DNA of 32,330 nt from Patescibacteria group bacterium (GCA_015491135.1 WFWK01000073.1:1-32330), one strand, 5' to 3'; counted from the first letter of the stretch, positions 27,742 to 32,175 are shown. Notes: generated from the sequence alone by a model not told the origin. Program-made: numbers and translations.

Positions 27742-28635
27742 TTATTTTGTTTTTTTGGAAGCTAATATGTTAACAGCTTTCGTGATAATCGGCAAAATAT
27801 CATCATAGAAATTCAAGTCAACAATGTCTTTTAGCTTAAACCACTGACCATCATCAAGCCCGCCATCTGTTTTCGGCTTAACGTCTTGAAACGGCGCTTT
27901 GGCCAAATGATAAACCGCGTGTCTGATTTTCTTTCCAAATTCAGGATCGGAAGCTTTATACTCGTTCTCGCCCAAAAAATCTTCCACCTCAACCGGAAGG
28001 CCGAGCTCTTCTTGTACTTTTCTTTTTATACCGTCTTCTGTTGTTTCATTTTCCTGAAGTTTGCCTTTAGGGAGAGTCCAGTGACCGAAAATATCATGCA
28101 CCAGCGCAACATAAAATTCCCCTTCATGCTCGGAGTAGACAACCGCTCCCACCAACTCCTCTTTTGGCAACTCTTTCGGTTTTGTCTCCTCCTCTGAGAT
28201 AATTCCGCTTTCAAGCATTTCTCTGTAGACAGCACCCAAGACACCATTTACAAACTTACCACTGGAGTCTCCACCAAACTCTTTAGCAAGCTCTATTGCT
28301 TCGTTTATGGCAACCTTTGGAGGTACTTGTTCTCTATCGGCAAACAAAAGCTCGGCAAGACCTATACGTAAAATATTTCTGTCCACTATGGCGATTTTCT
28401 CAAGTGGCCACTCGGGCGCAGCTTTCTGTATTATCTCATTTAGCTCTTCGTATTTGGATAAAACCAAATCAAGAAGTTTTTTCATGAACGGAAAAATTGT
28501 TTTATCGGGGGCAAACTCGGCGACATTTTCAAGAAAAACTTTTTCAACATCTTCTTTTGAGCGAGTACCGCCCATTGCGTCTGTTTCAAATAGTGTTTGT
28601 AAAACAACTGAACGCCCTAAGTGTCTGTTTGCCAT
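27742..28635 (-). CDS. nusB: NusB (N-terminal, about 140 aa) fused to a Nudix hydrolase domain (C-terminal, about 140 aa)
   Basis: The NusB blocks are RSVVLQTLFETD and AIVDRNILRIGLAELLF...PPKVAINEAIELAKEFGGDSSGKFVNGVLGAV. After a linker, the Nudix box GKLQENETTEDGIKRKVQEELGL follows. It is a single uninterrupted 297-aa frame. Confidence 0.85.
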   Translation of the reverse strand: MANRHLGRSVVLQTLFETDAMGGTRSKEDVEKVFLENVAEFAPDKTIFPFMKKLLDLVLSKYEELNEIIQKAAPEWPLEKIAIVDRNILRIGLAELLFADREQVPPKVAINEAIELAKEFGGDSSGKFVNGVLGAVYREMLESGIISEEETKPKELPKEELVGAVVYSEHEGEFYVALVHDIFGHWTLPKGKLQENETTEDGIKRKVQEELGLPVEVEDFLGENEYKASDPEFGKKIRHAVYHLAKAPFQDVKPKTDGGLDDGQWFKLKDIVDLNFYDDILPIITKAVNILASKKTK

Positions 28636-28745: not shown

Positions 28746-29066
28746 TTTTTTCTCACTCTTTGTATCTTTGGTCTTTTTTTCAGCTTTTTCAGATGCTTTT
28801 TTGCTTTCTGAGCTTTCACTGTTTGAGACTTCTTGTTCCTGTTGCATCTCCTCAAGTTTTGCTTGCTTTTTTTGAAGTCTCTTTTCGGCCAAAGCGACAA
28901 CATCTATAATTTGCTTTCCTCTGTAGAACCCGCATTCCGGACACATTCTGTGTCTTAGGTGGTAAGCTCCACAATTTGAGCACTTGGAAAGACGCGCCCC
29001 TTTAAGAGCATGATGACTTCTTCTATTATCCCGATGCGCTCGGGTTACTCTCATTCTCACTACCAT
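28728..29066 (-). CDS. rpmF: 50S ribosomal protein L32 (zinc-ribbon form) with a K/E-rich C-terminal extension
   Basis: RVTRAHRDNRRSHHAL and CSNCG...CPECG are typical of L32. The tail of about 55 aa is low-complexity (KKQAKLEEMQQEQE...KKTKDTKSEKKTKTDK). Confidence 0.9.
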   Translation of the reverse strand: MVVRMRVTRAHRDNRRSHHALKGARLSKCSNCGAYHLRHRMCPECGFYRGKQIIDVVALAEKRLQKKQAKLEEMQQEQEVSNSESSESKKASEKAEKKTKDTKSEKKTKTDK

Positions 29067-29190
29067 GAAAAAGGATTATACCAACATTAACAGCGTTTGC
29101 AAGCTTTTTATGTCAACCTCTACTTTACACAACAGCGCAAATAAGTATACTCAATCTCGGAGTAGTCAACCTCAAACAGGAGGATTTTCC

Positions 29191-29532
29191 ATGAGTGGTA
29201 GAAAGTGGAGCAAAAAAGAAGACGAACTTCTTTTGAGATATATACAAGAAGGGCTCTCGGCGCGTCAAATCGGCGAAAAGCTGGGTCGTTCAAAAAACGC
29301 AGTATGTGGTCGCCTTGCAAGACTGCGCAAGATCTCTTCTGAACACTTAACTCAAGATGCGCATTTTTCCGCCACAGCAGAGGCGGTATACTCGCTTAAG
29401 CCAAATCAGTGTAGGTTTCCACTGGGTAATCCTGGAGATGAAAATTTCAATTTTTGCTCTAACAAAGCTTCTCCAGGGAAGTCATACTGCAAACACCATT
29501 ATTCTATAGCATATGTACATTTAAAAAGATAA
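29191..29532 (+). CDS. GcrA-family protein (113 aa)
   Basis: The N-terminal HTH-like region WSKKEDELLLRYIQEGLSARQIGEKLGRSKNAVCGRLARL and the C-terminal CRFPLGNPGDENFNFCSNKASPGKSYCKHHYSIAY match both conserved GcrA blocks. An AGGAGG RBS lies before the ATG at 29191. Confidence 0.8.
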   Translation: MSGRKWSKKEDELLLRYIQEGLSARQIGEKLGRSKNAVCGRLARLRKISSEHLTQDAHFSATAEAVYSLKPNQCRFPLGNPGDENFNFCSNKASPGKSYCKHHYSIAYVHLKR

Positions 29533-29535
29533 AAA

Positions 29536-29571
29536 TAAAAACCGTCACATAATCAAATGTGGCGGTTTTTT
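29536..29571. terminator. Bidirectional terminator
   Basis: AAAAA-ACCGTCACAT-AATCAA-ATGTGGCGGT-TTTTT forms a 10-bp stem with one G.U pair, between convergent genes. Confidence 0.75.
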
Positions 29572-30052
29572 ATACTTGTTTCTTCAGAAGATAGCACACA
29601 AATAAAAGTTGTAGAACTATCGCCCCTATTCCAACATAAAGTTGATACTGCAAAAGAAAAGTCAGTGCCCCAAAGCCCAAACCAAACAAGGCGACAATGG
29701 GAGCGACACAGCCGGCACAAGTGGCGGTTGCCACTATTGAAGCTAAAACTCCCGAAAGGGAACCGAAAATCGCACTTCCTCCGACTTCAGCTGGTGAGCA
29801 AACTTTTTTTCTGTTTATTTGACTGTAGTAGCTAACCAGCAAAAGAGCTGAAGTTGAAGCTGAAAGTAAAACAAGCATTACAAAATCAATTGCATTGTAG
29901 GTTTGTATTTGAAAGAGTAAGTCATTGCCCATTATGGTAAAAACCGGGAAAAGCACATAAATACTCAAAAAAAGCGCCAGAAGCAGAATAAAACTAACTT
30001 TATACTTTTTTATGATACTTCCCAGTTTATAAATGGTTTTCAAACACGACAT
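29570..30052 (-). CDS. Four-TM membrane protein with an intramembrane CxxC (CAGC)
   Basis: There are four hydrophobic segments, with ATATCAGCVAPIVALFG in the third. Additional Cys residues occur, for example in KKVCSP. It is the last gene of the csoR operon, 2 nt after the HMA gene. Confidence 0.7.
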   Translation of the reverse strand: MSCLKTIYKLGSIIKKYKVSFILLLALFLSIYVLFPVFTIMGNDLLFQIQTYNAIDFVMLVLLSASTSALLLVSYYSQINRKKVCSPAEVGGSAIFGSLSGVLASIVATATCAGCVAPIVALFGLGFGALTFLLQYQLYVGIGAIVLQLLFVCYLLKKQV

Positions 30053-30054
30053 GA

Positions 30055-30414
30055 TTACAACATGCTAATAAAATCCCATACAACAAATAAAATAATTACA
30101 AATGCAAATATTATTATTCCCCAAAACTTTTTCCCTCTCTTTCTCTTATCTTTGAGTCCTGCTAAAACAGCACCTTCAGCGCATGTCGCGTAAGATTGTG
30201 TTTTTTTAAGAATGCTTTGCGCTTCTTTGGAGCCTTCCTCCGGATACCCTATCTTTGCCAAAATTTTCACTACTTTTTCCCTATCACCAACAAAGCACAC
30301 CTTGCCTTTCTCTACGGATACGTTTACATTTGTTACTCCGGCTTCAGATAGAGCTTTTTTAATTGACTCTTCGCACCCGCCACATTTTAAATTTACAACT
30401 TTTATACACTCCAT
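30055..30414 (-). CDS. Heavy-metal-associated (HMA) domain protein with a C-terminal TM anchor
   Basis: The N-terminus VVNLKCGGCEESIKKAL carries the CxxC metal site in a ferredoxin-like HMA pattern. The C-terminus is FWGIIIFAFVIILFVVWDFI. Confidence 0.8.
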   Translation of the reverse strand: MECIKVVNLKCGGCEESIKKALSEAGVTNVNVSVEKGKVCFVGDREKVVKILAKIGYPEEGSKEAQSILKKTQSYATCAEGAVLAGLKDKRKRGKKFWGIIIFAFVIILFVVWDFISML

Positions 30415-30433
30415 GCTTGTTTTAAAGGCTTAA

Positions 30434-31165
30434 CTACTTTGAAAGAGCAGAATCTATAATAGATTTTACCGCCTCATAAGGTTGCGCTCCATTTATTGGA
30501 GCAACAGGTTTACCATCAAGCAATACTATACTCCAAGGTGTTCCTCTACCTCCGGTTTCAACAGCATTTGTGAAATCTTCTTGAACATCTTTGTCAAATT
30601 CTCCGCTTGTATAGCAACTGTCAAACGCTTTTTTATCAACTCCCGCAAAAGCTACAAGCCTTTCCAGCTCATCATCAATATTCCATTGGTCATTTGAAGG
30701 TGTTGTTCTAAAGTATTCATCTGTAAATTTCCAAAACGCATCATTGCCTCCCAGTTTGGCAACACACTCGCTTGCTATTGCCGCTTTGCGTGCGTTGCGC
30801 GGGTGCAACTGCTCAAGCGGGAAATGTCTGTACACCCATGCAACCTCCCCTTTCGGTCCGTACTCTTGAATAATCTTATTCATAACACCATGAAATCTTT
30901 GACAAAACGGACACTCAAAATCGGAATATTCAACAATTTTCAGTTTGGCGTCAGGATTTCCTTTTATGTGATCTTTGTTTGTAACTTTGTTAATTTTCTC
31001 TAGATTGACCTGCGCTTCCGCTGCATCAGGCGACCCTGCTGTATTGGTCTGAGAAGAAGATTTACTAAGAGCTAAAAACAACGAGCCGGCAATAAGAGCT
31101 CCTGCTATCACTATAGCCACAGGAATTGCATAATTTCCTTTTGTGTAATTTATTTGTGTACTCAT
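30434..31165 (-). CDS. DsbA-family thioredoxin-fold oxidoreductase, N-terminally membrane-anchored
   Basis: The TM helix is AIPVAIVIAGALIAGSLFLAL. The active site CPFC lies in YSDFECPFCQRFH. A cis-Pro region (GTPW) is present. Confidence 0.85.
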   Translation of the reverse strand: MSTQINYTKGNYAIPVAIVIAGALIAGSLFLALSKSSSQTNTAGSPDAAEAQVNLEKINKVTNKDHIKGNPDAKLKIVEYSDFECPFCQRFHGVMNKIIQEYGPKGEVAWVYRHFPLEQLHPRNARKAAIASECVAKLGGNDAFWKFTDEYFRTTPSNDQWNIDDELERLVAFAGVDKKAFDSCYTSGEFDKDVQEDFTNAVETGGRGTPWSIVLLDGKPVAPINGAQPYEAVKSIIDSALSK

Positions 31166-31198
31166 AATATTTTGTTAATTGATAATAAAATTTTTAAT

Positions 31199-31477
31199 TT
31201 ATCTGCGTGATGACTTGTAAATATTCATTATCTCTTTCGTTGCTTTGCTTACTTTGCCGGATTTTATAAGAGATACCACACATGTTCTAAGGTGATTCTC
31301 CAAAAGCTCCGCTTCAAAAGAAAGCAAAGCCTTCTGCGCCGCTTGCGACTGGGTAATTATTTCAACGCAGTATTCATCATTTTCAACCATTTTATATATG
31401 CCACGCACTTGACCTTCAATTCTGCGCAAACGATTTAGCAATTTCTTTTTTACTTTTTCATTTTCATCGCAATGCAT
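31199..31477 (-). CDS. csoR: CsoR/RcnR/FrmR-family metal-sensing transcriptional repressor
   Basis: LLNRLRRIEGQVRGIYKMVENDEYCVEIITQSQAAQKAL...ENHLRTC is the typical DUF156 helix bundle, with Cys...His...Cys ligand positions. Confidence 0.88.
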   Translation of the reverse strand: MHCDENEKVKKKLLNRLRRIEGQVRGIYKMVENDEYCVEIITQSQAAQKALLSFEAELLENHLRTCVVSLIKSGKVSKATKEIMNIYKSSRR

Positions 31478-31486
31478 GTGCCAAGT

Positions 31487-31507
31487 ATATACCCCTCTAG
31501 GGTATAT
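31487..31507. promoter_or_regulatory. CsoR-type operator (8-5-8 inverted repeat)
   Basis: ATATACCC-CTCTA-GGGTATAT lies 10-30 nt upstream of the csoR ATG. It has the ATACCC...GGGTAT architecture described for CsoR operators. A possible -35 TTGTGA and -10 TTTAAT lie just upstream on the - strand. Confidence 0.6.
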
Positions 31508-31538
31508 GCAAATTAAAAACTGTGGATAAATATTTCAC

Positions 31539-31570
31539 AAAAAAACGCGCGCCACCGTAGGTAGCGCGCG
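31539..31570 (-). terminator. Rho-independent terminator of the G+C-rich ORF
   Basis: CGCGCGC (31546-31552) pairs with GCGCGCG (31564-31570) around an 11-nt loop. TTTTTTT follows on the - strand (31545-31539). Confidence 0.6.
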
Positions 31571-31577
31571 CTGCGCG

Positions 31578-32096
31578 TCAAAGAACTGCCACCGCCTCTC
31601 TGCGCCGGCGGACAGCCCGCACCGGCGCCGAGAAAACGGCAAAGAGGGCGAGAGCGACCAGCTGCCCAACCAGGGCAAACACCCCGAGAGCGAGTGCCCT
31701 GCCAAGCAGCTCCTCCCCGACAAGCCCCCAGATGCTTCCGGGGGCAAGCAGGGAAGCGAGCGCCTGCGCCACAGTCCCCGCCGTCTCAAAGACGGCATTA
31801 AAAAGATGTGGCGCAAGCACGGCGCTGCCAACCGCTCCGGCTATGCCGAGGGTATGTCCCACGGCAAGCCGGAGTGGCAACAGCAGCCGCCCTGCCGAGA
31901 CGGCCAGGGCCGCCTGGGCAGTAAGTATTGCCACCGCCACAGTCAGCCCCAGCCCTGAGAGGGCCAGCCGAGCAAGAGCAATCTCGCCCTCGCCCAGTCC
32001 CGCCTGCCGGGCAACATCGGGCCAGCGCCCGGCGAGGCGGAGTGCCACCCTTACCCCTTCGGCTCTACTCCTCTTTTGTGCCCTCACCACTGTCAT
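31578..32096 (-). CDS. Hypothetical Ala/Leu/Gly/Arg-rich membrane protein (172 aa), compositionally foreign
   Basis: There are about 4 hydrophobic segments. First codon positions are strongly G-enriched (GCC/GTG/GGG/CTG codons). It has its own terminator. Hand counts give 39/60 and 47/60 G+C inside, against 20/60 just outside. No Shine-Dalgarno sequence is evident before the ATG. Confidence 0.6.
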   Translation of the reverse strand: MTVVRAQKRSRAEGVRVALRLAGRWPDVARQAGLGEGEIALARLALSGLGLTVAVAILTAQAALAVSAGRLLLPLRLAVGHTLGIAGAVGSAVLAPHLFNAVFETAGTVAQALASLLAPGSIWGLVGEELLGRALALGVFALVGQLVALALFAVFSAPVRAVRRRREAVAVL

Positions 32097-32175
32097 CTGT
32101 GGTGTGGGCGGTTGCCAATTTTTTTTATATTACACCATAAATATATAGCTCAGTCAATATAGTACACAGATCAAA

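What the first reader, a model, noticed from the sequence alone, without database searches (positions are those of the whole stretch)
29570..31507. CsoR-operated operon encoding thiol-disulfide/metal-binding envelope proteins but no efflux pump
Seen in the sequence. Four same-strand genes have gaps of 33, 19 and 2 nt. They are csoR, a membrane-anchored DsbA-like protein (CPFC), an HMA domain (CGGC) with a C-terminal TM anchor, and a 160-aa four-TM protein with CAGC inside TM3. The set is preceded by a perfect 8-5-8 palindrome, ATATACCC-N5-GGGTATAT, of CsoR-operator type, and it ends at a bidirectional terminator. Established knowledge: CsoR regulons normally centre on a CopA P-type ATPase and a soluble CopZ. 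Neither is present here. Inference: this may be a copper-inducible envelope module. It could sequester Cu(I) on a tethered chaperone and repair copper-damaged disulfides. The CxxC membrane protein would then serve as the redox or metal relay, a role like DsbB/VKOR/CcdA or ScsB, but it is not recognisably any of these. The logic resembles the Salmonella Scs (suppressor of copper sensitivity) system with different parts.
Basis: partly seen in the sequence, partly recalled or inferred. Interest (0 to 1): 0.62.

Follow-up and report, generated by a model that had tools for sequence, protein, structure and literature searches.

The report
Copper-switched cysteine-relay operon without a pump
A tiny Kaiserbacteria-like bacterium with no copper pump in its assembly carries one copper-sensing switch that controls three cysteine-pair proteins, one outside, one inside and one in the membrane. 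The membrane protein belongs to an unnamed family that sits beside mercury and copper resistance genes in related bacteria, so it most likely passes soft metal ions across the membrane as the mercury transporter MerT does.

Summary
Four minus-strand genes (csoR, a DsbA-like gene, an HMA gene with a C-terminal anchor, and a 160-aa CxxC membrane protein) have gaps of 33, 19 and 2 nt. They lie between a promoter that contains a 21-bp CsoR operator and a bidirectional terminator.

The operator matches 18 of 20 positions of the tested Streptomyces CsoR consensus. The repressor has the Cu(I) triad C37/H62/C66.

The 639-kb assembly (90% complete) has no CopA-type ATPase, MerA, DsbB or CcdA.

The 160-aa protein matches no Pfam or NCBIfam model and no solved fold. 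It belongs to a real family of 192 cluster representatives.

Close relatives sit next to true MerA (7 loci), multicopper oxidase plus CopG, CsoR/ArsR regulators, or thioredoxin-fold exported proteins. A distant subfamily follows a DsbA-like gene in 12 of 14 loci, some next to copper ATPases. Its last two helices align weakly but in order with the MerT/MerC core.

Best reading (about 0.5): a copper-induced MerT-like cysteine relay running from the outside DsbA-like protein, through the membrane CxxC, to the cytoplasmic tethered HMA.

Main rival (about 0.27): a new DsbB/DsbD-like redox partner of the DsbA-like protein.

The HMA domain faces the cytoplasm, not the envelope.

The parts
31507..31512 (-). 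-35-like hexamer TTTGCA
   Evidence: Promoter scan gives TTTGCA-17-TATACT at 31512..31484. It is conserved in the 90%-identical relative L037.
31487..31507 (.). 21-bp CsoR operator. On the gene strand it reads ATATACCCTAGAGGGGTATAT and contains TAC-X9-GTA.
   Evidence: It is unique in the genome, with 0.03 expected per window. It matches 18 of 20 positions of the tested S. lividans type-2 consensus ATATACCCCTNAGGGGTATAT. In relative L037 the arms are kept and the centre differs. It fills the promoter spacer and overlaps the -10 hexamer.
31484..31489 (-). -10-like hexamer TATACT. It ends 6 nt before the csoR ATG, so the message is probably leaderless or nearly so.
   Evidence: The leaderless start is an inference from spacing only.
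31199..31477 (-). csoR, a Cu(I)-type CsoR repressor (92 aa). Features: RLRR 16-19, Y36, C37, H62, C66, E82.
   Evidence: PF02583 at 98.2 bits. The closest solved structures are S. lividans CsoR 4ADZ (70 bits), Geobacillus CsoR 4M1P and M. tuberculosis CsoR 2HH7. The residues were read directly from the sequence.
30434..31165 (-). DsbA-like thioredoxin-fold protein (243 aa) with an N-terminal membrane anchor, CPFC active site and G-T-P cis-Pro loop. The domain is predicted to lie outside the cell membrane.
   Evidence: Thioredoxin_4 at 1.5e-22 and DSBA at 1.2e-15. The nearest PDB sequences are Wolbachia alpha-DsbA1, C. diphtheriae DsbA and BdbD, with ScsC weaker. It is 51% identical to a DsbA-like gene that precedes a TM190 gene and a CPH-type copper ATPase in L073.
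30055..30414 (-). HMA (CopZ/NmerA-like) domain with CGGC, tail-anchored by a C-terminal helix. The domain is predicted to be cytoplasmic.
   Evidence: PF00403 at 40.1 bits. There is no signal peptide, and KRKRGKK precedes the helix. This architecture was found only here and in the 86%-identical relative.
29570..30052 (-). 160-aa four-helix membrane protein of an unnamed family. Conserved residues are C112xxC115, the outer-loop motif P36..G42-N43..Q48, and G124/G126. It has a cytoplasmic-loop Cys85 and no C-terminal Cys pair.
   Evidence: No Pfam or NCBIfam match. 192 relatives among 1.84 billion representatives. Alignment A1. AlphaFold pLDDT 88, pTM 0.78. No PDB fold match. Context and tree. 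MerT/MerC similarity.
29537..29570 (.). Bidirectional intrinsic terminator that ends the operon and also serves the convergent GcrA-like gene.
   Evidence: 14-pair stem with T-runs on both sides.
31544..31572 (-). Terminator of the upstream GC-rich cassette gene. It insulates the csoR promoter from upstream transcription.
   Evidence: 13-pair stem with 9 G-C pairs and a T-run.

Best explanation
This is a self-repressed, Cu(I)-inducible operon.

Without copper, CsoR sits on a 21-bp operator. The operator fills the spacer of the operon's own promoter and overlaps its -10 hexamer. Cu(I) bound at C37/H62/C66 releases CsoR.

The three effectors place one cysteine pair in each compartment:
- a DsbA-like CPFC domain anchored on the outer face of the membrane
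- a membrane protein with C112xxC115 near the outer leaflet and Cys85 on a cytoplasmic loop
- an HMA domain (CGGC) tethered to the inner face by a C-terminal helix

I propose that they work like the mercury relay MerP -> MerT -> NmerA. A soft metal ion, here Cu(I), is handed from cysteine pair to cysteine pair by ligand exchange, without ATP.

The direction is not determined. I lean towards inward transfer, which would clear Cu(I) from the cell surface onto a tethered cytoplasmic chaperone, as MerTP and CopCD do. Outward transfer from the chaperone is also possible.

What is shown:
- gene order
- the operator match
- the CsoR ligand set
- the absence of a P1B pump
- the existence and conservation of the family
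- its genomic links to MerA, copper genes and thioredoxin-fold proteins

What is inferred: topology, metal specificity, relay order and direction.
For: Regulation:
- The operator matches 18 of 20 positions of a consensus tested by ITC and mutation, including the essential TAC-X9-GTA dyad (PMC3902906).
- It lies inside TTTGCA-17-TATACT and is conserved with a changed centre in a 90% relative.
- The closest solved structures to the repressor are Cu-sensing CsoRs.

No pump: only two P-type ATPases exist in the assembly, and both lack CPC/CPH/SPC motifs and HMA domains.

Family of the membrane protein:
- 192 relatives of 140-210 aa, with invariant C112 and C115.
- 120 of 146 members carry two or more Cys in the cytoplasmic C-terminal tail, like MerT's cytoplasmic pair.
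- The window's clade (bootstrap 100/97) has a cytoplasmic-loop Cys instead.

Genomic context:
- Six of 17 strong hits in the same class lie within 1.5 kb of MerA, plus one metagenome locus, L079.
- That MerA passes the TIGR02053 equivalog cut-off (506.6 bits against 454.45) and ends in CC.
- ArsR-type regulators flank several of these loci.
- Relatives with the loop Cys sit by a multicopper oxidase plus DUF411/CopG (L044) or by DsbA-like + DUF411 + a CsoR-family gene (L077).

Similarity to Mer transporters:
- hhalign of the family profile against Tn21-type MerT gives probability 51%. It aligns CxxC with CC, YR with YRP, and the tail Cys with the loop Cys. MerC gives 36%.
- The family HMM scores MerT at 15.5 bits. 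The best of 2228 unrelated ORFs from the window's own genome scores 9.9 bits.
- A few members hit MerT/MerF models directly.
Against: - The window protein itself matches no MerT, MerC, MerF or MerE model, and the profile similarities are weak and lie in hydrophobic helices.
- Foldseek did not find MerF.
- The window protein lacks the cytoplasmic Cys pair found in most of the family.
- The genome has no MerA and no exporter, so neither passive import nor passive export gives an obvious net detoxification.
- One mer locus (L079) also has a canonical MerT and MerP, so the family is not simply the MerT substitute there.
- Thioredoxin-fold neighbours on both sides of the membrane fit a disulfide relay equally well. 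These are DsbA-like, TlpA/ResA-like, and a glutaredoxin in L076.
- 10% of the genome is unsampled, so a copA could have been missed.
Confidence: 0.5

Rival explanations
1. Redox relay, Scs- or Dsb-like. The 160-aa protein is a new kind of membrane thiol-disulfide transducer. It either re-oxidises the DsbA-like protein, as DsbB/VKOR do, or feeds it reducing power from the cytoplasm, as DsbD/CcdA/ScsB do. The operon would then repair copper-damaged disulfides in exported proteins. The tethered HMA would only buffer Cu(I) or act as the cytoplasmic CxxC donor.
For: - A distant subfamily ('TM190': G.GC..CG, LPxxGxE, one C-terminal Cys) lies directly after a DsbA-like CPFC gene in 12 of the 14 loci aligned. 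This is the classic arrangement of dsbA-dsbB/vkor pairs.
- Closer relatives have a DsbA-like (L039, L051, L055, L077), a TlpA/ResA-like (L033) or a glutaredoxin (L076) gene as immediate neighbour.
- The window's genome has no DsbB, no DsbD_TM and only a sub-threshold VKOR-like ORF without CxxC.
- It also has a second, stand-alone DsbA-like paralogue that would need a partner.
- In the model the CxxC sits at the N-terminus of a helix, as in thioredoxin-type active sites.
Against: - Only one conserved Cys pair faces outward. DsbB and VKOR need two.
- There is no 3+3 inverted repeat as in CcdA/DsbD.
- There is no Pfam or fold match to DsbB, VKOR or CcdA.
- This reading does not explain the repeated MerA linkage, or the MCO/CopG neighbours.
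- The outer CxxC and the cytoplasmic Cys lie a membrane thickness apart, which suits ion hand-off better than direct disulfide exchange (inference).
- The DsbA-TM190 pairs sit in metal-resistance contexts, not housekeeping ones: a CPH-type ATPase, HMBD, cupredoxin, YtkA, DUF2933 and ArsR.
Confidence: 0.27
2. A remnant mercury (or broad soft-metal) uptake and binding module. The operon descends from a mer-type cassette that lost merA and came under CsoR. It handles Hg(II), Ag(I) or Cd(II) as much as copper, mainly by binding and not by transport.
For: - The wider family is nested among MerA-linked clades.
- The part list matches MerP-like, MerT-like and NmerA-like roles.
- The family is patchy: none of the 19 same-order genomes sampled has it. 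This suggests horizontal acquisition, as for mer cassettes.
Against: - The regulator carries the Cu(I) C-H-C triad and second-shell Y/E residues, not a MerR- or ArsR-type Hg sensor (direct reading).
- The window's clade lost the tail Cys pair typical of the MerA-linked members. Its other contexts are copper genes: MCO, CopG and a CsoR-family gene.
- Mer transport without MerA causes hypersensitivity in known systems (established knowledge).
Confidence: 0.08
3. The membrane protein has no mechanistic link to its neighbours, for example a structural or unrelated small membrane protein. The operon's function would rest on the DsbA-like and HMA proteins alone.
For: Several relatives stand alone or beside unrelated genes (L040, L042, L047, L052, L053, L056-L059, L074).
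Against: - The CxxC is invariant across 93 aligned members.
- There is a 2-nt gap to the HMA gene.
- The same four-gene order occurs in a 90% relative.
- Association with metal or thiol genes recurs in many independent lineages.
Confidence: 0.1

Closest known systems
MerP-MerT-(NmerA)MerA mercury relay of Tn21/Tn501, and the related MerC and MerF
   Same: - A cysteine pair in a membrane helix, followed by a hairpin and a cytoplasmic cysteine site.
- An outside Cys-pair partner and an inside HMA-domain partner.
- Close family members are encoded directly next to true MerA and ArsR-type regulators.
- A weak but co-linear profile alignment of the last two helices to MerT helices 1-2.
   Different: - Four helices instead of three (MerT) or two (MerF).
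- CxxC instead of the vicinal CC.
- No match to any Mer model for the window protein.
- The outside partner is a thioredoxin-fold DsbA-like protein, not an HMA-fold MerP.
- The HMA is tail-anchored to the membrane, not fused to MerA.
- There is no MerA, and the regulator is CsoR.
CsoR-copZA operons (B. subtilis, S. lividans, M. tuberculosis)
   Same: - A CsoR with the C-H-C Cu(I) site.
- A type-2 operator with TAC-X9-GTA inside the promoter.
- Autoregulation.
- An HMA-domain protein in the regulon.
   Different: - No CopA P1B ATPase in the operon or the assembly.
- The HMA protein is membrane-tethered.
- The regulon carries a DsbA-like protein and an unnamed CxxC membrane protein instead.
Scs (suppressor of copper sensitivity) system, ScsB/ScsC/ScsD of Salmonella, Proteus and Caulobacter
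   Same: Copper-linked; an exported thioredoxin-fold CxxC protein that can bind Cu(I); a membrane cysteine protein encoded alongside. ScsC structures are weak sequence matches of the DsbA-like protein.
   Different: - No DsbD-family ScsB (PF02683 absent).
- The DsbA-like protein is closer to DsbA/BdbD-class proteins than to ScsC.
- The membrane protein has a different size, helix number and cysteine pattern.
- The regulator differs.
CopC-CopD / YcnJ copper uptake modules inside copper-resistance operons
   Same: An outside metal-binding protein plus a small-subunit membrane importer, encoded within a resistance locus. This is a precedent for inward transfer as part of resistance.
   Different: No sequence or fold relation. 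CopC uses His/Met ligands and CopD is an eight-helix protein. No cysteine relay is involved.
DsbA-DsbB, DsbA-VKOR and BdbD-BdbC pairs
   Same: A DsbA-like gene is adjacent to a four-helix membrane protein with a CxxC near the outer face.
   Different: No second outward Cys pair, no homology or fold match, no quinone pathway expected in this lineage, and metal-resistance neighbours.

Membership tests
CsoR/RcnR repressors, Cu(I)-sensing CsoR subgroup | Match to PF02583 above the gathering score | tested here: met
   98.2 bits against a cut-off of 22.8. The best PDB relatives are Cu-sensing CsoRs.
CsoR/RcnR repressors, Cu(I)-sensing CsoR subgroup | x-C-H-C ligand fingerprint with second-shell Tyr and Glu | tested here: met
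   Y36, C37, H62, C66 and E82 were read from the translation. This is the M. tuberculosis numbering shifted by one.
CsoR/RcnR repressors, Cu(I)-sensing CsoR subgroup | Type-2 operator with TAC-X9-GTA dyad at its own promoter | tested here: met
   18 of 20 consensus positions, located inside the promoter spacer and -10 hexamer.
CsoR/RcnR repressors, Cu(I)-sensing CsoR subgroup | Cu(I)-dependent release from DNA | not testable with these tools
   Needs EMSA or ITC.
DsbA-like thioredoxin-fold oxidoreductases | Thioredoxin fold with CxxC and a cis-Pro loop | tested here: met
   Thioredoxin_4 at 81 bits and DSBA at 58 bits. CPFC and G-T-P are present.
DsbA-like thioredoxin-fold oxidoreductases | A DsbB or VKOR partner in the genome | tested here: not met
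   No DsbB match. The best VKOR match scores 13.7 bits against a cut-off of 27.5, in an ORF without CxxC. The assembly is 90% complete.
HMA / CopZ metallochaperones | HMA domain with CxxC in the first loop | tested here: met
   PF00403 at 40.1 bits against 24.8. The motif is CGGC at residues 11-14.
HMA / CopZ metallochaperones | Small soluble protein | tested here: not met
   A C-terminal hydrophobic helix follows a KRKRGKK stretch.
MerT/MerC/MerF mercuric ion transporters | Match to a curated Mer transporter model | tested here: not met
   The window protein has no Pfam or NCBIfam match at E <= 1. Only 1-2 of 93 family members hit MerT or MerF weakly.
MerT/MerC/MerF mercuric ion transporters | Cysteine pair in a membrane helix plus a cytoplasmic cysteine pair | tested here: inconclusive
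   The membrane CxxC is invariant. 120 of 146 members have a tail pair, but the window protein has only the loop Cys85.
MerT/MerC/MerF mercuric ion transporters | Encoded with MerA, MerP or a mercury regulator | tested here: inconclusive
   Met for relatives: 7 MerA-linked loci. Not met for the window, since no MerA is in the genome.
MerT/MerC/MerF mercuric ion transporters | Detectable homology of the two-helix core | tested here: inconclusive
   hhalign probabilities are 51% (MerT) and 36% (MerC). The family HMM gives 15.5 and 10.8 bits against a background maximum of 9.9. Foldseek found no MerF match.
DsbB / VKOR | Family model or fold match, and two outward-facing Cys pairs | tested here: not met
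   No Pfam hit in 93 members. No PDB fold hit. Only one conserved pair, the CxxC, is predicted to face outward.
CcdA / DsbD / ScsB | PF02683 or PF13386 match, six helices with one Cys each in helices 1 and 4 | tested here: not met
   No match. The protein has four helices and a CxxC.
CopA-type P1B ATPase in the regulon | P-type ATPase with a CPC/CPH/SPC motif and HMA or His-rich N-terminus | tested here: not met
   The two ATPases in the assembly lack these features. No second operator of the full 8-5-8 form exists.

The most novel reading that the evidence does not exclude
The four-helix CxxC superfamily could be the missing membrane partner of DsbA-like proteins in ultra-small bacteria that lack quinones. 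The superfamily includes this protein, the DsbA-paired 'TM190' subfamily and forms fused to Cys-rich outer domains. It would be a new class of transmembrane thiol-disulfide transducer. It would link a cytoplasmic CxxC donor or acceptor (tethered HMA, glutaredoxin, or the C-terminal tail pair) to an outside thioredoxin-fold protein. In this operon it would be switched on by copper.
Probability: 0.22. Interest if true: 0.85.

Novelty: new variant of a known kind. Interest (0 to 1): 0.6.

Why it matters
Copper defence in bacteria is taught as CsoR or CueR plus a CopA pump. Here a genome of about 0.64 Mb keeps one copper sensor and spends its whole regulon on three cysteine-pair proteins, with no pump found in the 90%-complete assembly.

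The membrane component belongs to a family that has no name in Pfam or NCBIfam and no solved fold relative. Yet it recurs beside MerA, copper oxidases, copper ATPases and DsbA-like proteins across CPR bacteria.

If it is a MerT-like relay, it is the likely mercury and copper transporter of these lineages. It would then explain the compact regulator-merA-X operons seen in CPR genomes. If it is instead a redox partner of DsbA, it would be a third solution, after DsbB and VKOR, to a basic problem of protein folding outside the cell.

Either answer can be tested with simple complementation assays in E. coli laboratory strains.

Tried and rejected
- Pfam and NCBIfam scans of the 160-aa protein and of 93 relatives found no family.
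- A profile search of PDB sequences gave only spurious RecA-fusion hits and a MerF hit at E = 0.25 that is not aligned on the CxxC.
- Foldseek against PDB had its best hit at E = 0.53, an ATP synthase stator. I rejected it.
- The word-indexed homologue search found only the 90% relative. The exhaustive HMMER search was needed to find the family.
With the single protein it found only one Kaiserbacteria MAG.
- The tail-anchored HMA has almost no relatives. The one 54% relative is a soluble HMA in an unrelated context.
- A second weak family hit in the own genome (C78) lies antisense inside uvrA and is spurious.
- The near-palindrome on contig C48 (ATACCC-N6-GGGTAT) lies inside overlapping ORFs, and I did not pursue it.
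- The VKOR-like ORF on C39 is below threshold and lacks CxxC.
- MerE showed no similarity.
- I planned a class-wide cross-tabulation of DsbA-like genes against the membrane family, and wider flanks for the TM190 loci.
Full report
**What is in the sequence**

Four genes lie on the minus strand:
- csoR, 31199-31477, 92 aa
- a DsbA-like gene, 30434-31165, 243 aa
- an HMA gene, 30055-30414, 119 aa
- a 160-aa membrane protein gene, 29570-30052

Pfam places the first three in Trns_repr_metal (98.2 bits), Thioredoxin_4/DSBA (81 and 58 bits) and HMA (40.1 bits). The fourth matches nothing in Pfam or NCBIfam.

The DsbA-like protein has an N-terminal hydrophobic anchor, a CPFC site and a G-T-P loop.

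The HMA protein starts directly with the domain (CGGC at residues 11-14). It ends in a hydrophobic helix that follows KRKRGKK. With no signal peptide and the basic stretch on the domain side, the HMA domain should face the cytoplasm.

**Regulation**

The palindrome at 31487-31507 reads ATATACCCTAGAGGGGTATAT on the gene strand. It occurs once in the 639-kb assembly. Its core is expected 0.03 times per window by shuffling.

It matches 18 of 20 defined positions of the 21-nt type-2 consensus ATATACCCCTNAGGGGTATAT. That consensus was defined for streptomycete CsoR and tested by ITC. The site also contains the TAC-X9-GTA dyad, whose mutation abolishes binding (PMC3902906).

The site fills the spacer of a promoter-like TTTGCA-17-TATACT and overlaps its -10 hexamer. 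That hexamer ends 6 nt before the ATG, so the message may be leaderless.

In a relative whose four proteins are 86-93% identical, the arms are kept and the centre differs (ATATACCCCGGAGGGGTATAT). This pattern is expected of a working operator.

The repressor carries RLRR, Y36, C37, H62, C66 and E82, which is the Cu(I) fingerprint. Its nearest solved relatives are the copper-sensing CsoRs of S. lividans, Geobacillus and M. tuberculosis.

A terminator at 31572-31544 closes the upstream gene. A bidirectional terminator at 29537-29570 closes the operon. Beyond it lie a convergent GcrA-like gene and rpmF, not copA.

**No pump**

The assembly has 87 contigs and is 90% complete. A close relative is labelled Candidatus Kaiserbacteria.

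It holds only two P-type ATPases. Neither has CPC, CPH or SPC, nor an HMA domain. One carries VPEGL, a P2-type motif.

There is one CsoR and one HMA gene in the assembly. There is no MerA, no DsbB, no DsbD-type protein, and only a sub-threshold VKOR-like ORF without a CxxC. A second DsbA-like paralogue stands alone on contig C58.

**The 160-aa protein is a member of a real, unnamed family**

An exhaustive HMMER search of 1.84 billion cluster representatives gave 192 hits at E <= 0.001, almost all 140-210 aa long.

In an alignment of 93 members, C112 is invariant. C115, P36, N43, Q48 and G124 are nearly invariant.

AlphaFold with this alignment gives a confident model (pLDDT 88, pTM 0.78). It has long helices at 18-39, 54-84, 87-109 and 137-159. 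The CxxC sits at the start of a short helix at 113-123.

With basic residues at the N-terminus, after helix 2 and at the C-terminus, the ends should be cytoplasmic. The CxxC and the conserved PGN..FQ loop should then lie near the outer face. This topology is an inference.

Foldseek finds nothing similar in the PDB; the best E-value is 0.53. Sources name members only as 'hypothetical protein'.

**Genomic company of the family**

In 401 genomes of the same class, 18 have a strong full-length member. None of 19 same-order genomes has one, so the distribution is patchy.

Among the 17 strong hits outside this genome:
- Six lie within 1.5 kb of MerA, and a seventh MerA-linked locus comes from a metagenome (L079).
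- That MerA passes the TIGR02053 equivalog cut-off (506.6 bits against 454.45), has the GGTCVNVGCVPSK site and ends in CC.
- ArsR-type regulators flank several of these loci.

Of 146 members, 120 carry two or more cysteines in the cytoplasmic C-terminal tail. All MerA-linked ones do.

The window protein belongs to a well-supported clade of eight (bootstrap 100, SH-aLRT 97). This clade lost the tail pair and has a cysteine in the cytoplasmic loop after helix 2 instead.

Known contexts in that clade and in other loop-Cys members are copper-flavoured or thiol-flavoured:
- the same csoR operon (L037, L038)
- a DsbA-like gene directly upstream (L039)
- a multicopper oxidase and DUF411/CopG (L044)
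- DsbA-like + DUF411 + the membrane gene + a Cys/His/Met-rich protein + a CsoR-family gene (L077/L078)
- a glutaredoxin directly upstream (L076)

**A distant subfamily pairs with DsbA-like genes**

Profile hits that cover only the last two helices define proteins of about 160-210 aa. They share the motifs G.GC..CG and LPxxGxE and have one C-terminal cysteine.

In 12 of the 14 loci aligned they directly follow a DsbA-like CPFC gene. That gene is of the same family as the window's and is up to 51% identical to it.

These pairs are not housekeeping units. Their neighbours include a CPH-type P1B ATPase, an HMBD-bearing ATPase N-terminus, a cupredoxin domain, YtkA, DUF2933, DUF302, rhodanese and ArsR. 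In relatives, therefore, the DsbA-like/membrane pair accompanies copper pumps. In this genome no pump was found.

**Relation to Mer transporters**

I took MerT, MerC and MerE from a Tn21-type operon on a Klebsiella plasmid.
- hhalign of the family profile against MerT gives probability 51%. Helices 3-4 align to MerT helices 1-2, CxxC falls on CC, YR on YRP, and the tail cysteine on MerT's loop cysteine.
- MerC gives 36%. MerE gives nothing.
- The family HMM scores MerT at 15.5 bits and MerC at 10.8 bits. The best of 2228 unrelated ORFs from the window's own genome scores 9.9 bits.

This is suggestive, not proof. The segments are hydrophobic helices, and the window protein alone matches no Mer model.

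**Weighing the explanations**

The MerA linkage, the cytoplasmic cysteine site, the co-linear MerT alignment and the MCO/CopG contexts fit a soft-metal cysteine relay. On that reading the operon is a MerP-MerT-NmerA-like chain without the reductase. The DsbA-like protein plays the outside role and the tethered HMA plays the inside role, under a Cu(I) sensor.

Direction is open. Relays of this kind have no motor. Mer and CopCD give precedents for inward transfer within resistance loci. The lack of any exporter makes the net benefit unclear either way.

The main rival is a redox relay. It is supported by the tight DsbA pairing, the thioredoxin-fold neighbours on both sides of the membrane, and the absence of DsbB/VKOR/CcdA here. 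It is weakened by the single outward cysteine pair, the lack of any fold or family match, and the MerA linkage.

I put the metal relay at about 0.5 and the redox relay at about 0.27.

**Limits**

- Topologies, metal specificity and relay order are all inferred.
- The assembly is incomplete.
I therefore could not cross-tabulate DsbA-like genes against the family, or widen the TM190 loci.
- Earlier notes of this scan describe what looks like the same superfamily in DPANN and CPR windows and reach a similar MerT-like reading. I read them after my own analysis. They are leads and not independent evidence.

Noticed in passing
window 31553-32172: A 620-bp block of about 64% G+C, with a 172-aa orphan membrane-like ORF (31578-32096, minus strand) and its own terminator. 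It is inserted between the upstream gene and the csoR promoter. The 90%-identical relative L037 has only 17 bp there.
   Followed up: partly
window 29065-29532 (+): A GcrA-family gene (PF07750, 75.8 bits) lies between the operon terminator and rpmF. It is absent from relative L037, where rpmF follows the operon directly. It is therefore a strain-variable insertion.
   Followed up: partly
window 27742-28635 (-): A NusB-Nudix fusion upstream of RNase III. The same fusion and gene order are called in L037 and in the more distant L074.
   Followed up: no
L012, L014, L015, L017, L018, L029, L067, L068, L070-L073: A conserved gene pair: a DsbA-like (CPFC) gene followed by a membrane protein of about 160-210 aa with G.GC..CG, LPxxGxE and one C-terminal Cys. 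It is often flanked by copper genes (CPH-type ATPase, HMBD, cupredoxin, YtkA, DUF2933) and by an unnamed His-containing exported protein of about 200 aa.
   Followed up: partly
L035 3696-5204 (-), L036 5921-7756 (-), L062, L063: Fusions of the CxxC membrane module to an outside domain of about 250 aa. That domain has YRPCCGNS...DCNHG and a C-terminal GG.GCG[IV] motif and matches no Pfam family. The L036 protein also has an N-terminal Cys-rich zinc-ribbon-like segment, which occurs as a separate 99-aa protein in L039.
   Followed up: no
genome contig C39 4813-5304 (-): A 163-aa membrane ORF with a sub-threshold VKOR match (13.7 bits). It keeps a loop C-x6-C but has only a single Cys where VKOR has CxxC.
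   Followed up: partly
L079 3310-7373: A CPR mer locus that carries an ArsR-type regulator, MerA, a member of the CxxC family, a Cys-rich 72-aa protein, a DedA/VTT protein, a canonical MerT and a MerP-like HMA protein together.
   Followed up: no
L074: Genes called in this relative contain in-frame stops under table 11, so that organism probably uses an alternative genetic code.
   Followed up: no
L039 689-709: A CsoR-like half-matching site, GATACCTGTATAGGGTATAAT, lies upstream of the small genes that precede a DsbA-like/CxxC membrane pair. No CsoR gene is visible on that 3.2-kb contig.
   Followed up: no
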